DNA of 64,000 nt from Candidatus Hodarchaeota archaeon (GTDB lineage: Archaea; Asgardarchaeota; Lokiarchaeia; Sigyniarchaeales; SOKP01): contig JBHLKM010000016.1 in NCBI GenBank assembly GCA_048886685.1, positions 1-64,000 on the forward strand, given 5' to 3'. Positions 3,069-56,280 of this stretch are shown here, one piece after another. Under the pieces are notes generated by a model. That model was not told where the DNA came from. It worked only from the letters and a program-made list of their open reading frames with translations, and searched no databases. The stretch's first letter is position 1. Each line of letters starts with the position of its first letter. The position numbers were made by a program, and so were the translations under genes.

Positions 3069-4502
3069 ATGGAATTAAATCCTGATTATATCAAAGAGAA
3101 TTTATCTGAAATTGGAAAAAAAGAGGGTTTAAATCTATTAAGAGAGCTTATTAATAGTTCGAATGATTCTAATATCCGTAAAAAAGCACTAGAAAACTTT
3201 GGAATGTTAGAAGGGGGTAATAATTTCTCATTTTTAGAACAATTATTTCTTTCTGACGAGGATCTTGATATAAGATTAATTGCTGGTATGATACTACAAG
3301 AAAAATATCCAACACATAAGAAACTCCTTCGTCTTTTAGAATATTCATTAAGGAAACTAGACAATGTAGCCCAAAAAATCTTTTCTATAAAAACTCTAAA
3401 CTCCATAGAAAATATAAAAGCCCGAAAAATTCTGACAGAATATTTAAGAGAATATTTAAAGAAAAAATTTAAAGATAAGAAACATGATTTACAGCTTACT
3501 TACGATTACAAATTAGTTATTCCTGAAAACATTATTGAGATTTTTATTAACTTAATTCTAAGCGACTTTTATGAATATAAATGCAGGTATCTTATTACGC
3601 TTAGAAGAGGGAAGATTGTCGCATTAAATTGTGAAAGTTCTAATTTAGAAAATATTTCAGATATATACGGGTTTTGTTTACTTAATGATTTAGAACATCT
3701 TTCTTTACAAAGAAATAACATTAAAATAATTTTAAATCTTAACCATTTAAGGAACCTGAAGTCTTTAGATTTATCTCACAATAAATTGGAAAAGATCCAA
3801 AATCTTGAGAACTTGGGTAAATTAGAAGAATTAAGTTTATCAAATAATGGAATCTGGAGAATAGAAAATTTAGAATTATTGCATAATTTAAAAAAATTGA
3901 ACCTTAGTGACAACTCAATAAAAATTATCGAAAACTTAAATTCTTTGAGTTCGTTGGAGATTTTGGATTTGAGCCATAATAGCATATCACATATCAGCAA
4001 TCTAGATAAATTAGAGAATTTAAAAAGATTAAACCTTTCTTTTAATCAAATTGAAAAAATAGAGGGCCTTATTCAGTTAAAGAACTTAATGTGGTTATAC
4101 TTAAATGATAATAAAATTTCTCAGCTTGAAGGCTTATCAACGCTAAATAAATTGAAGGGATTATATCTTTCAAATAATTTTATCGAAAGAATCAAATCAT
4201 TAGAGAGCTTATTGAGTTTAAAGAAATTAGAATTGTCAAATAATAAAATTTACAAACTGGAAGGATTACAAGAATTGTTAGAACTACAGGAACTATATCT
4301 AGATAATAATCTAATACAAAAAGTAGATGGTCTCGAAGGATTAGATAATTTAATAATGCTACATATAGGGAGAAATAAAATACAAGAATTTAGAAAGGAG
4401 AACGTTGAACATTTGAAGAATCTGAATTTTTTATTCTTAAATGAAAATCCTTTAGATAAAAAGAGTTTTGTGGAATATCAGAAAAGAATTAGATTTCCAT
4501 AA
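3069..4502 (+). CDS. Leucine-rich repeat protein (SDS22-like LRRs) with HEAT-like N-terminus
   Basis: About 12 tandem 22-aa repeats LxxLxLSxNxIxxIExL; helical N-terminal region. Confidence 0.9.
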   Translation: MELNPDYIKENLSEIGKKEGLNLLRELINSSNDSNIRKKALENFGMLEGGNNFSFLEQLFLSDEDLDIRLIAGMILQEKYPTHKKLLRLLEYSLRKLDNVAQKIFSIKTLNSIENIKARKILTEYLREYLKKKFKDKKHDLQLTYDYKLVIPENIIEIFINLILSDFYEYKCRYLITLRRGKIVALNCESSNLENISDIYGFCLLNDLEHLSLQRNNIKIILNLNHLRNLKSLDLSHNKLEKIQNLENLGKLEELSLSNNGIWRIENLELLHNLKKLNLSDNSIKIIENLNSLSSLEILDLSHNSISHISNLDKLENLKRLNLSFNQIEKIEGLIQLKNLMWLYLNDNKISQLEGLSTLNKLKGLYLSNNFIERIKSLESLLSLKKLELSNNKIYKLEGLQELLELQELYLDNNLIQKVDGLEGLDNLIMLHIGRNKIQEFRKENVEHLKNLNFLFLNENPLDKKSFVEYQKRIRFP

Positions 4503-50591: not shown

Positions 50592-51801
50592 CTATTTTTG
50601 CTTTGAAAGGTATCTAATTTTTACGAGTAAATCTCGAAGTTCCATTTTATCATTGTCAGATGTTATGTATTTCTTTTTTACTCCTTCTGAAAGCGGGATT
50701 GTTTCAATTTTATTTCCTTGGAGAGATACCATATTCCCAAATTTACCTTCTAAAACAAGTTTCATTGCTGCTAATCCAAACCTTAATCCTAAAATCCTAT
50801 CAAATGAATTAGGTGGTCCGGCACGCATGGTGTGACCAAGAACTACACTTCGACATTCGAAATCTACTCCATTTTTCTCAAATTCTTGTTTTAAATCGTC
50901 TCTTAAGTTTAATTCTTCAACAATTATTTGGGACATATTCAATTTTACTAATAATGGATTACCAAATGTATCCTTAGGTAATTTATCAATTGTTTCTTTA
51001 GATATGGTTTTAAAATCTCGGTTAAGAGATTCTAAATTCGGATAGGCTCCCTCTGATGTAGCAATTATATGATATTTATAGCCAGCATTAACTCTTTTTT
51101 TCAAAACATCAATAACATCTTTTTCTAAGTCAAATGGCGTTTCTGGGATTAATATTATATCTGCTCCAGCAGATATTCCGCTATACATTGTTAAAAAACC
51201 TGCATCTCTGCCCATTACTTCTACAACAAATACTCTTTGATGCGATCGAGCCGTGGTTGTAAGATTATCCATCGCGTTAGAGGCTAGTTGTGTCGAACTC
51301 CAGAAGCCAAACGTATAATGTGTTCCCTGCAGGTCATTATCAATAGTTTTTGGCACTCCTACTACTTTAGCATCAGCGAATCTATACAAATTATCAGCCA
51401 CTCCAAGAGTATCGTGTTCAGTTTAAAACAGAAGTTATTCTAAAACTCCACCGATAGCAATTAGAGCATCTATTCCTAATTCTTCAAACTTTTTGGTTAA
51501 TTCTTTAGCTTTTTCCTCTTTTGCACTTACTCCCTTAAATGGATTCGTCCTACTTGTATATAGGATAGTCCCCCCCACAGTATGTAGGTCATCATGTTCT
51601 GCTATATTAAGTGGAATTGTTTGGTTTTCCACAAATCCTTTCCATCCCTTAAGGATGCCAACACATTCAATCCCAGTATCATAAGCTTTAAGCATGATTC
51701 CATAAAGTACGGAATTTAAACCGGGACAGTGTACGACAGTTAAGGAAACCTTTAGACATGGCTCCGCCGCCCGTGAGAATTCCAACTTTTTTAATTGCTA
51801 T
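50592..51801 (-). CDS. pfkA: PPi-type 6-phosphofructokinase, three exons (51801-51762, 51730-51446, 51415-50592), 382 aa after splicing, probable ATA start
   Basis: Joined exons read IAIKKVGILTGGGDCPGLN...GGTILYTSR...IGGDDTLG...PKTIDND...EVMGR...LGH; GGDD plus PKTIDND indicate PPi dependence. Confidence 0.88.
51416..51445 (-). other. Putative BHB-type mRNA intron 2 of pfk (30 nt)
   Basis: Insert TTTTAGAATAACTTCTGTTTTAAACTGAAC splits GGA G^AC GAT and carries in-frame TAA; 9-bp inner hairpin; exon-exon helix TATCG/CGATA. Confidence 0.8.
51731..51761 (-). other. Putative BHB-type mRNA intron 1 of pfk (31 nt)
   Basis: Insert CCATGTCTAAAGGTTTCCTTAACTGTCGTAC splits GGA G^AC TGT and shifts the frame; central helix GCGG/TCGT with bulges AG^C and AC^A. 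Confidence 0.8.
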
Positions 51802-51935
51802 TTATAATCACCTTCATTAATTTTTATTTTTTTGACTAATTAATTAAGCCATTTTTGATTAAAAATGTTATTATGAAGTTATATTTAAAAAGATATAAAT
51901 GAAATTATCTTTCCATTCCTTTTTTTTTTAAAAAT

Positions 51936-52337
51936 CTATTCATTTTCATTATTTCCTAACCATTCTTTAAATGTTTTTTGAGGGATCATTTCCTGTATTG
52001 ATATACCTGTCTGTTCTTTAAATTGCTTTTCTATCTCCCTCGTCCATAGCTTCTTATCTATCTGATCATTCAGCTTTATTAAGACTATACCTCCTCTTGC
52101 ATCAAAAGCATCACGTTTAAATGAATCTCTTTGCCTTGTTTTGTATTTACTATGCCAATACATCTCCCAAAACTCATATAATACCTCATATTTCTTTCCA
52201 TTTATCAAAACACTGTTATATCCATCTACATGAGATCTCGGGTGAACTTTTTTATTCACTCCCTTAATTTTTATTTGATTTCCTACAATATTGCGTAAAT
52301 GTGTATGATCAAATTTTACGCCAAATATTTTTTCCAA
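51936..52337 (-). CDS. Small Vsr/PD-(D/E)xK-like endonuclease domain protein
   Basis: HVDGY...LYEFWEMYWH...RDSFKR...IVLIKL pattern resembling DUF559/Vsr-like nucleases. Confidence 0.55.
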   Translation of the reverse strand: MEKIFGVKFDHTHLRNIVGNQIKIKGVNKKVHPRSHVDGYNSVLINGKKYEVLYEFWEMYWHSKYKTRQRDSFKRDAFDARGGIVLIKLNDQIDKKLWTREIEKQFKEQTGISIQEMIPQKTFKEWLGNNENE

Positions 52338-53157: not shown

Positions 53158-53736
53158 TTGTCTCTAGAAGAAAAAATAGTAGAAATCTCTATGCATTGTA
53201 GAGGCGGTCAAACATGTATAACTGCTAGTCAATTACTAGCTGAAATGGCATTCGAGGAAGGCTTTAAGGACACAATAGCGATTCCCATAATTGGGGCTGA
53301 GCGAAGGGGCGCTCCTATCCAAGCATTTTCAAAAATTTCAAGAAGTAAATCGATTAAAACATACGATAGTGTAGTAAATCCAGATTATATTTTGATGTTT
53401 GATACCTCATTGCTGGAGATCCCGAGAATTAAAGAAAGCATAAAGGAAGGTGCAACATTAATAGCAAATAGCCCAAATCCAATCGATACTACTGACTTTC
53501 CTAAAAACATAAAGATTTTTATTGTCGATGCTACAGGAATTTGCATCGAAAAAGATTTTATGCATTCTAGTGGTCCTATCCTAAATATTCCTATGTTAGG
53601 TGCTTTTGGAAAGGTTACAGGGTATTATGATCTTAAAAGCATGGAAAAAGTTATTAAAAAAGAATTTGGGGAAGGGAGATTGGAAAAAAATATGAGCGTC
53701 GCAAGAGCAGCTTATGAAACAGTAAAGGAGGTATAA
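53158..53736 (+). CDS. porC: 2-oxoacid:ferredoxin oxidoreductase gamma subunit
   Basis: [17 protein letters not shown]. Confidence 0.9.
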
Positions 53737-53738
53737 TA

Positions 53739-54086
53739 TTGACAAAATCTAAAAAATGGAAGAATATCAACAAGTCTGTTGAAGAGCGTCCAAAAGTCCA
53801 AGAGTATAAAGATTGGGAGGAATTGCCGCCTATTCCAATATCTTTGCCCATAGATGGAAGCATTGGTACCACTGGGGATTGGAGAACTTTTAGGCCTATT
53901 ATCAAAGAAGGATGTAATCAATGTGGTATCTGTTGGATGTATTGCCCAGAAGGAGTAATAAAAAGGAAGCAAGATGGTTCTTTTGAAATAGATCTTAACT
54001 ATTGTAAAGGTTGTGGGATTTGTGCGAAAGAATGCCCATCAGATAATATAGAAATGGTAAGAGAGAGTGATATAAAAGATGGTTGA
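53739..54086 (+). CDS. porD: 2-oxoacid:ferredoxin oxidoreductase delta subunit
   Basis: TGDWRTFRP; two 4Fe-4S motifs ([24 protein letters not shown]). Confidence 0.92.
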
Positions 54087-55335
54087 AGCTCAACAAGATT
54101 TTATTCAGGAAAGAGAAACAAAAATAATTAAAGGAAATGTAGCTGCTGCGTATGCTGCAAAATCAGCTCGAGTTCAAGTAATCAGCGCATATCCAATTAC
54201 ACCACAAACTACTGTGGTTGAAAAGTTATCTGAATTTGCAGATAATGGAGAAATGCCAGGAACTCAATATATAAAAATGGAATCAGAACATAGCGTTTTT
54301 GCTGCTGTAATAGGTGCAAGTAAAGCAGGCACTCGAACATTTACAGCAACATCCGGTCAAGGTATATTTTATGCACATGAAATGATTCATTGGGCAGCAG
54401 GTGCCAGACTTCCTATTATTGTTGCTATTGCTTCAAGAGGACCAGCACCACCTTGGAATATTTGGGCAGATTTTACCGATGTGTTAAGTCAACGTGATAC
54501 AGGATGGATGAGTTCGTTTTGTGCTTCTCATCAAGAAATATATGATGAAATCCTGATGTCATATAAAGTTTGTGAAGATCATGAGGTTTTACTTCCCAAA
54601 TTTGTTGCTTATGGTGGTTTTATATTATCTCATACTTCAAAACCAGTGATAATTGAAGACCAGGATCTTGTTGATAAATATTTACCCTCATTGCCTGGTG
54701 AAGAAGGGTGGCCCCATATTTGGATGGATCCTAAGAGACCGATGATGTTTGGTAATCTTATTATGCCTTCGGGATTTTATTACGAATTTAGAATGAAAAT
54801 TCATGACTCCTTTATTCGAGCCAAAGAAAAGATCAAAAATGCAGCAAAAGAGTTTGAGAATGTTTTTGGGAGAAGTTATGGAAATGGATTAATTCAAGAA
54901 TACCATATGGATGATTCGAAGGTGGGTGTTGTAATTTATGGTGATTTAGCATTACAAATGGAACAGGCTATAGATGATTTAAGAGAAGAAGGATATAAGG
55001 TAGGCATGGTGAAATTAAGACATTTCCGACCGTTTCCTGTAGAAGATATCCTCAATTCTATTAAAAAAGTGAAACTTATAGGAGTTATTGATAGAGCGAC
55101 AGCGTTTGGATCACAAACTGGAGGCCCAGTTAGCTGTGAGGTTAAAGCCGCTTTGCATGAAACAAAAAATACCCCTACTGTATTGCCTATAATAAATGGC
55201 TTGGGTGGAAGAGAAGTATCTTTAGAACAACAAAAAGATCAATTAAAAATGTTAATTAAATTAGAAGAAATTGGAGAATTACCCAAAGATATGATACATG
55301 GAACTCTCTGGGATGGACTATTGGAGGTTGAATAA
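54079..55335 (+). CDS. porA: 2-oxoacid:ferredoxin oxidoreductase alpha subunit
   Basis: [29 protein letters not shown]. Confidence 0.93.
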
Positions 55336-55338
55336 CAA

Positions 55339-56280
55339 ATGGTTAAATTAAAAGAAGCATTAGATTCATGCCAAGAAGAATATTTCCTTCCAGGAAATTC
55401 TTGCTGTGCTGGTTGTGGTCTTGAAATTGCTCTTCGTTGGGCAATGAAAGCTTTAGGACCTAATACAGCATTGGTTACTCCAGCTTCATGTTTGAATGTA
55501 GTAATTGGGTTATGGCCAAAAACAGCACCAAATTTTCCTTTTACTAATATGGCTTTTGCAGCAGGAGCAGCGGCAGCCACTGGTATGGAAGCGGCTTTCA
55601 AGGCTAAAGCATATAAGTTCCCTAATAAAGGATGGGATGAAATAACAACTTTAGTATTTGCTGGAGATGGAGGTACTGCAGATATAGGTATTCAAGGTCT
55701 CAGTGGAGCTGCAGAAAGAAATTCAAACATTATATATACTTGTTACGACAATGAGGCATATATGAACACTGGGATCCAACGATCTTCGAGTACACCTCAT
55801 GGGGCAATTACAACAACAACGACTCTTGGAAAGGAAAGATATAAGAAAAATCTTCCAGGTATTCTAGTTGCACATGACATACCTTATGTTGCAACATGTA
55901 GTATAAGCGAACCACTTGATTTGTATGATAAATTTAAAAAAGCTAAATCAATTAAAGGTTGTAAATATATACACATTTTAGCTCCTTGTCCTCCAGGTTG
56001 GGGATTCGGTTCCGAAGAAGCAATAGAAATTGCTCGTTTAGCTGTTAAATCAGGCTCATGGATATTATATGAAGTTGAAAATGGTATTATGAAATTATCA
56101 AAAAAGAGCAAGTCTTTATTAGAACCTTCTAAAAGAGTTCCATTAGTTGAATACCTTTCCAAACAAAAACGTTTTTCACAGATTTCTGAGAAGGATTTAA
56201 TAGAACTTCAAGAACGCCTAGATCATAATTGGGAGCGAATAAATGTTGAATTAAGTTGTCAAGAACAATATCCAAAATAA
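55339..56280 (+). CDS. porB: 2-oxoacid:ferredoxin oxidoreductase beta subunit
   Basis: CAGCG, GDGGTADIG TPP motif, DNEAYMNTGIQRS, PCPPGW. Confidence 0.93.
   Translation: MVKLKEALDSCQEEYFLPGNSCCAGCGLEIALRWAMKALGPNTALVTPASCLNVVIGLWPKTAPNFPFTNMAFAAGAAAATGMEAAFKAKAYKFPNKGWDEITTLVFAGDGGTADIGIQGLSGAAERNSNIIYTCYDNEAYMNTGIQRSSSTPHGAITTTTTLGKERYKKNLPGILVAHDIPYVATCSISEPLDLYDKFKKAKSIKGCKYIHILAPCPPGWGFGSEEAIEIARLAVKSGSWILYEVENGIMKLSKKSKSLLEPSKRVPLVEYLSKQKRFSQISEKDLIELQERLDHNWERINVELSCQEQYPK

What the first reader, a model, noticed from the sequence alone, without database searches (positions are those of the whole stretch)
50592..51801. Phosphofructokinase gene split by two short tRNA-type (bulge-helix-bulge) introns: candidate mRNA splicing in an Asgard archaeon
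Seen: the gene appears as fragments, but removing 51761-51731 (31 nt) and 51445-51416 (30 nt) gives one 1149-nt frame (40+285+824) encoding 382 aa with all PFK motifs intact (GGGDCPGLN, GGTIL, GGDDT, PKTIDND, MGR). No other lesion is visible. Both inserts fit the geometry 4-nt helix strand, 3-nt bulge cut after nt 2, hairpin, 4-nt helix strand, 3-nt bulge cut after nt 2, and these cuts coincide with the frame-restoring junctions. Established: archaeal EndA cleaves BHB motifs this way and RtcB ligates the exons; mRNA introns of this type are known mainly from crenarchaeal cbf5. Inference: a glycolytic mRNA needs two splicing events, giving a multi-exon protein gene and a possible splicing-level control point in the archaea closest to eukaryotes.
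Basis: partly seen in the sequence, partly recalled or inferred. Interest (0 to 1): 0.96.

Follow-up and report, generated by a model that had tools for sequence, protein, structure and literature searches.

The report
Two tRNA-type introns in Asgard pfk
The only phosphofructokinase gene of this Asgard archaeon is broken by two 30-31-base inserts shaped like tRNA introns, and relatives show they are conserved RNA structures in a gene still under strong selection, so its mRNA very probably has to be spliced twice, something the papers I could search report inside an archaeal coding sequence only for cbf5.

Summary
Confirmed. Removing 51761-51731 and 51445-51416 gives one 382-codon PPi-type PFK frame. 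Each junction is fixed to the base because it splits an invariant Asp codon (D in 83/83 orthologues). Both inserts are present unchanged in DNA-run contigs. Among about 90 orthologous loci, insert 1 (30-32 nt) lies at the same base in 32 and insert 2 (30 nt) in 22. All 40 carriers are dead unspliced and open spliced; dN/dS is about 0.05-0.08, as in intronless copies. Insert 1 is a canonical BHB (central helix 99% paired, exon-intron compensatory change). Insert 2 is a relaxed one (2-3 of 4 central pairs, near-perfect outer helices). The genome has two EndA-family genes and RtcB. No RNA run was available, so splicing itself is inferred (about 0.9). Corrections: the start is ATA, not ATG (11 loci have such starts), and a regulatory role is unsupported, since most congeners lack the introns and they appear to move by recombination. 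The scan has found these pfk introns, and similar ones in other Asgard genes, before on other DNA. In print I found only cbf5 and one 5'-UTR case.

The parts
51808..51812 (-). Shine-Dalgarno-like GGTGA, 6 nt before the ATA start
   Evidence: sequence; same spacing before the non-ATG starts of 10 other loci
51762..51801 (-). pfk exon 1 (40 nt): ATA start at 51801-51799, ends in the first base of Asp14; supplies central-helix strand GCGG (51767-51764)
51731..51761 (-). intron 1, 31 nt, frameshifting; canonical HBh'-class BHB (central helix 4/4, intron strand 51736-51733)
51446..51730 (-). pfk exon 2 (285 nt), ends in the first base of Asp109; supplies central strand GTGG (51451-51448) and exon-helix strand (51456-51452)
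51416..51445 (-). intron 2, 30 nt, in frame but with a stop codon; relaxed BHB (3/4 central pairs, 9-bp intron stem, 5-bp exon helix)
50592..51415 (-). pfk exon 3 (824 nt), holds PKTIDND and MGR, ends at TAG

Best explanation
This is a functional, single-copy, PPi-type phosphofructokinase gene of a Promethearchaeota (Loki-type Asgard) archaeon with two archaeal BHB-class introns. In the pre-mRNA each insert folds with its flanking exon bases into a bulge-helix-bulge. The two-subunit tRNA splicing endonuclease cuts after the second base of each 3-nt bulge and RtcB joins the exons, rebuilding the Asp codons of the GGGD and GGDD motifs. Translation starts at an SD-led ATA. The introns are old, persist because precise splicing makes them nearly harmless and only exact loss is tolerated, and are gained and lost by lineages largely through local homologous recombination. 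Shown: inserts, frame rescue, conservation, covariation, selection, presence of the enzyme genes. Inferred: actual cleavage and ligation, the identity of the enzymes, use of ATA, and the mode of spread.
For: Exact frame and Asp rescue only at the BHB cut sites. Same insertion points in 32 and 22 loci; insert 1 in 5 genera, 30/31/32 nt long. All 40 carriers stop early unspliced (by codon 15-50, or 111-115 if only insert 2); 34 reach 381-393 aa spliced and 6 run to a contig end without a stop. dN/dS median 0.082 (frameshifting insert 1 carriers), 0.067 (insert 2), 0.061 (intronless) at dS about 1.2; G000 branch 0.051. Site-1 central helix 99.1% paired, with an exon-intron C-G to U-A change in 3 sequences; 8 pairs change on both sides against 0-5 in slid controls. 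Mean central pairs 3.96 at the true register against 0.5-1.6 at most shifts, and 3.25 at -3 where the GGC repeat recurs. Site-2 outer helices 98-99% paired. Synonymous exon codons are frozen only in carriers: GGA 31/31 vs 23/51, GAC 29/31 vs 9/51; ATC 21/22 vs 7/55, GAC 22/22 vs 7/55. Two EndA-family genes and RtcB are intact. No other full pfk is in the assembly. A purA insert in the same genome behaves the same way. cbf5 precedent, also cut after the first base of an Asp codon (PMC2738675).
Against: No spliced RNA or peptide was observed. Insert 2 never forms the outermost central pair (0/19) and has only 2 of 4 pairs in 4 of 19 distinct sequences; the relaxed class alone arises often by chance (10.64898/2026.10.13.758758). 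Site 2 shows little two-sided covariation (1 pair). The minimum-energy fold of each junction is not exactly the BHB. Relatives are not independent, so counts overstate. The start codon is non-canonical.
Confidence: 0.9

Rival explanations
1. The gene is a pseudogene: the inserts and the ATA start are inactivating lesions.
For: Unspliced frame stops at codon 37; there is no ATG/GTG/TTG start; most congeners have clean genes.
Against: The same inserts sit in dozens of genomes separated by dS above 1 with no further stop or frameshift and dN/dS 0.05-0.08. It is the only full pfk in a genome scored 100% complete. Non-ATG starts recur at this position in 11 loci, 2 of them intronless.
Confidence: 0.02
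2. The inserts are skipped at translation (ribosomal bypass, frameshift or readthrough) rather than spliced.
For: Short hairpin-containing inserts with stop codons resemble bypass signals in general terms (own knowledge: T4 gene 60).
Against: Both inserts split a codon after its first base, so a hop would give His rather than the invariant Asp in this genome. Insert 1 occurs in all three length classes mod 3. Conserved pairing between exon and the intron's 3' end is not needed for hopping.
Confidence: 0.03
3. The inserts are removed from RNA, but at least one (most likely insert 2) by a different route: another nuclease, or a helper factor that remodels the weak central helix.
For: Insert 2 has an invariant G.A at the outer central position and as few as 2 of 4 central pairs.
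Against: Spacing is exactly BHB. Two-subunit EndA enzymes are reported to cleave relaxed motifs (PMC2738675), and the genome has two EndA-family genes. No GT-AG ends; far too short for group I or II introns.
Confidence: 0.04
4. Assembly artefact, or DNA-level excision of small mobile elements.
For: Metagenome assembly with 8.4% contamination; intronless alleles exist in the same sediments (table 5).
Against: Inserts are present with 0 differences in contigs of other runs and in many other genomes. No target duplication, and no other copy in the genome apart from a stray pfk fragment.
Confidence: 0.01

Closest known systems
BHB intron of the cbf5 (pseudouridine synthase) pre-mRNA of Crenarchaeota (Watanabe 2002; Yokobori 2009, PMC2738675)
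   Same: Short intron inside a coding sequence; cut after the second base of BHB bulges; unconventional BHB forms; splits an Asp codon between its first and second letter; patchy, with gains and losses; hetero-oligomeric EndA.
   Different: Asgard rather than crenarchaeal; a central-metabolism enzyme rather than an RNA-modifying one; two introns in one mRNA; cbf5 splicing is shown by cDNA and in vitro cleavage, this one is not.
BHB intron in the 5' UTR of Haloferax volcanii HVO_1309 (PMC7714728)
   Same: mRNA substrate of the splicing endonuclease, short intron (46 nt).
   Different: Lies in the untranslated leader, so the protein does not depend on exact splicing.
Canonical and relaxed BHB introns of Asgard tRNA genes (bioRxiv 10.64898/2026.10.13.758758)
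   Same: Same motif classes (insert 1 canonical HBh', insert 2 relaxed by that paper's rules), similar size, same phylum-level group, two-subunit EndA background, splicing not yet shown in an Asgard cell.
   Different: Those are in tRNA genes; the terms I searched turned up nothing on mRNA introns in that paper.
PPi-dependent PFK of Ca. Prometheoarchaeum syntrophicum (PDB 9CIR, 44XA)
   Same: Best PDB match to an intronless congener protein, E 1.8e-145, same GGGDCPG, GGDDT and PKTIDND motifs.
   Different: That protein is longer (424-residue construct); loci from other families of the order, which resemble it, carry neither insert.

Membership tests
Archaeal BHB (EndA-type) intron | Two 3-nt bulges separated by a 4-nt central helix, with the junctions after the second bulge base | tested here: met
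   Frame- and Asp-restoring junctions coincide with that register for both inserts
Archaeal BHB (EndA-type) intron | [quoted passage not shown] | tested here: met
   4/4 here and in 27 of 28 distinct relatives, compensatory exon-intron change
Archaeal BHB (EndA-type) intron | Canonical class: all four central pairs (intron 2) | tested here: not met
   3/4 here, outer pair never formed in 19 of 19; it is filed as relaxed class only, with both outer helices 98-99% paired
Archaeal BHB (EndA-type) intron | Host encodes EndA and an RNA ligase | tested here: met
   Two PF01974 genes (198 and 200 aa) and one PF01139 gene, no stops
Archaeal BHB (EndA-type) intron | Removed from RNA in vivo and cleaved by EndA in vitro | not testable with these tools
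   No RNA holder listed; no bench assay
Spliceosomal intron | GT...AG ends | tested here: not met
   Ends are CC...AC and TT...AC at the only Asp-restoring register
Group I / group II self-splicing intron | Ribozyme core of several hundred bases | tested here: not met
   30-32 nt only
PPi-dependent PFK (PfkA superfamily) | GGDD in place of GGDG, with PKTIDND; homology to characterised PPi-PFKs | tested here: met
   Motifs in the spliced frame; GGDD signature per PMC12203962; best PDB match 9CIR, called a PPi-PFK; TIGR02483 best family, below its cut-off. The Lys signature is from my own knowledge.
PPi-dependent PFK (PfkA superfamily) | Measured use of PPi as phosphoryl donor | not testable with these tools
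   needs an enzyme assay

The most novel reading that the evidence does not exclude
Loki-type Asgard archaea run a standing population of endonuclease-spliced mRNA introns in core metabolic genes (pfk twice, purA, probably more). These favour a Gly-Asp context (exon ending AG, next exon starting AY), spread between lineages by recombination, and make multi-exon protein genes a normal feature of the archaeal relatives of eukaryotes, so their gene catalogues are systematically mis-annotated. A splicing-based metabolic switch is the least supported extension (about 0.1).
Probability: 0.7. Interest if true: 0.85.

Novelty: new variant of a known kind. Interest (0 to 1): 0.76.

Why it matters
In the papers I could search, endonuclease splicing of an archaeal coding sequence rests on one gene, cbf5. 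A two-intron, three-exon central-metabolism gene in Asgard archaea, with comparative evidence from dozens of genomes, extends this to multi-intron mRNAs in the lineage nearest to eukaryotes, which use related enzymes for tRNA splicing and RtcB for XBP1 mRNA. It means apparent Asgard pseudogenes and missing pathway steps may be intact spliced genes. It also gives tiny, fully defined substrates (one canonical, one relaxed) for the open question of what Asgard EndA can cut. It says nothing direct about the origin of spliceosomal introns.

Tried and rejected
RNA evidence: no RNA holder listed for the stretch, so nothing for or against expression. An ab initio genome-wide scan for BHB plus frame rescue recovered both pfk inserts and the purA one, but had no discrimination: 3195 hits for the canonical geometry against 3123-3213 for wrong geometries (a first run timed out). 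A motif-free comparison with 400 kb of a congener was swamped by intergenic indels at DNA level. A motif search for the cobO intron noted earlier found nothing (not pursued). No further copies of either intron sequence in the genome beyond the C5 fragment. The C5 fragment was too little diverged to serve as a pseudogene control. Literature searches for Asgard mRNA introns and for Asgard non-AUG starts found nothing relevant; the library lacks most subscription journals. One search failed on an out-of-frame reference.

Full report
Observation. On the minus strand, deleting 51761-51731 (31 nt) and 51445-51416 (30 nt) gives a 1149-nt frame of 382 codons with every PFK motif intact. Any shift of either deletion keeps the frame but loses an Asp; only shift 0 gives GGGDCPG and GGDDT. 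Those Asp residues (codons 14 and 109) are invariant in 83 of 83 aligned orthologues, so both junctions are fixed to the base without using the RNA motif. Unspliced, translation stops at codon 37, and insert 2 carries its own in-frame stop. Contigs of DNA runs X1-X3 hold insert 1 and the start region with no differences, and X1 and X2 hold insert 2. These runs are one study, and one may be the source.

Organism and gene. A named Promethearchaeota record matches exon 2 at 91% and carries the same site sequences as a same-genus genome, so the host is a Loki-type Asgard archaeon. The assembly (4.4 Mb, scored 100% complete, 8.4% contaminated) has one full pfk and a 232-bp stray fragment on C5. The protein is PfkA superfamily. 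It has GGDD, the signature of PPi-dependent enzymes (PMC12203962), and its congener's best PDB match is 9CIR/44XA, described as the P. syntrophicum PPi-PFK. Such enzymes are reversible, so 'glycolytic' is only half the story.

Relatives. I collected about 90 orthologous loci. Insert 1 sits at the identical base in 32 loci of five genera (31 nt x24, 32 nt x7, 30 nt x1); insert 2 in 22 loci of three genera (always 30 nt). 14 loci have both, 44 neither. This set was enriched for carriers by my choice; in the unselected first sample of congeners each insert was in 5 of 21-22. Neither was seen in the loci sampled from other families of the order. All 40 carriers are truncated unspliced; after removal 34 give 381-393 aa and 6 run open to a contig end. 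dN/dS is 0.082 among carriers of a frameshifting insert 1, 0.067 for insert 2 and 0.061 for intronless genes at dS about 1.2, and 0.051 on this genome's own branch. A dead gene would not keep that.

Structure. Site 1: the 4-bp central helix is paired in 99.1% of cells over 28 distinct sequences. Where the exon's GGC becomes GGT the intron partner changes G to A (3 sequences), and 8 of 17 pairs show two-sided changes, against 0-5 in slid controls and 0 of 500 shuffles (relatedness inflates the shuffle test, and I drew the structure from these sequences). Site 2: the exon helix (5 bp) and intron stem (9 bp) are 98-99% paired, but the central helix is 70% paired: the outer position is never a pair and 4 sequences have only 2 of 4. 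By the rules of the Asgard tRNA preprint, intron 1 is canonical and intron 2 relaxed. The most telling sign of RNA-level selection is in the exons: synonymous codons that form the motif are frozen in carriers and free in intronless genes (for example ATC 21/22 vs 7/55 and GAC 22/22 vs 7/55 at site 2).

Machinery. Two intact EndA-family genes and one RtcB are present, matching the two-subunit architecture reported for most Asgard genomes and the type that splices the unconventional cbf5 motifs. That these enzymes act on this mRNA is inference.

Evolution. Presence changes at least 21 times (intron 1) and 14 times (intron 2) on a quick gene tree (unrooted counts, and the gene itself is mosaic). 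Close pairs that differ in state often diverge just at the site: L042 vs L048 differ by 25% in the first 20 codons and 0-6% elsewhere; L060 vs L061 by 27-31% around site 2 and mostly 3-17% elsewhere. This points to exchange by local recombination, though one intronless pair also differs by 23% at the 5' end. A few intronless copies keep the carrier-type codons (L060 at site 1; L006 and L098 at site 2), as precise loss would leave. Such patchiness fits near-neutral passengers better than a conserved control switch.

Beyond pfk. Following an earlier scan note, I checked purA on C2: a 30-nt insert again splits an Asp codon after exon bases GGAG. 13 of 30 congener loci carry a 30-32-nt insert there, 12 with a 4/4 central helix, and all splice to the same open frame. 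Both pfk introns, purA and cbf5 thus cut an Asp codon after its G. Whether this reflects where introns land or where they cannot be lost imprecisely is untested. My two attempts at a genome-wide count were uninformative.

Start codon. ATA, ATT, ATC or ACG stands where others have ATG in 11 loci of several genera, always after an SD-like sequence, two of them intronless, and none with an early stop; two of the 11 have a GTG five codons further on. I read it as tolerated near-cognate initiation, not a lesion; this is inference.

Known and new. Searches found cbf5 (PMC2738675) and the HVO_1309 5' UTR (PMC7714728, which calls cbf5 the only other example) and no paper on Asgard mRNA introns. Earlier notes of this scan report the same pfk introns in other genomes and similar introns in other Asgard genes, one of them with RNA support that I could not check; I treat them as leads only. 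Verdict: a real feature, very probably two EndA/RtcB-spliced mRNA introns (0.9), a new variant of a known kind, with direct proof of splicing still missing.

Noticed in passing
window 51799-51801 (-) and L033, L034, L040, L042, L043, L046, L062, L065, L089, L090: pfk begins at a near-cognate codon (ATA, ATT, ATC or ACG) behind an SD-like sequence in 11 loci, with and without introns; suggests non-AUG initiation is tolerated in this family.
   Followed up: partly
G000 C5:244014-244245 (L039 about 1533-1764): Stray 232-bp intergenic copy of part of pfk exon 2, intron 2 and 14 nt of exon 3, 95% identical, with an intron variant matching another species (L003); its flanks also appear in runs X1 and X2, so it is real DNA and unspliced.
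   Followed up: partly
G000 C2:178201-178230 (-), L120/L122: 30-nt BHB insert splitting the Asp codon of purA WGDEGKGK; present in 13 of 30 congener loci with 30-32 nt length.
   Followed up: yes
   Followed up: partly
window 51936-52337 (-): 133-aa ORF (TTG start) with no NCBIfam match lies between the ZPR1-like gene and pfk; in most congeners pfk follows the ZPR1-like gene directly.
   Followed up: no
G000 whole genome: ARAGORN finds only 35 tRNA genes, many with 8-33-nt introns, several with odd anticodon calls, and none in this window; some tRNAs are probably missed because of multiple introns.
   Followed up: no
window 53158-56280 (+): Four-gene 2-oxoacid:ferredoxin oxidoreductase (gamma, delta, alpha, beta) operon, read from ORF translations; ordinary.
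   Followed up: no
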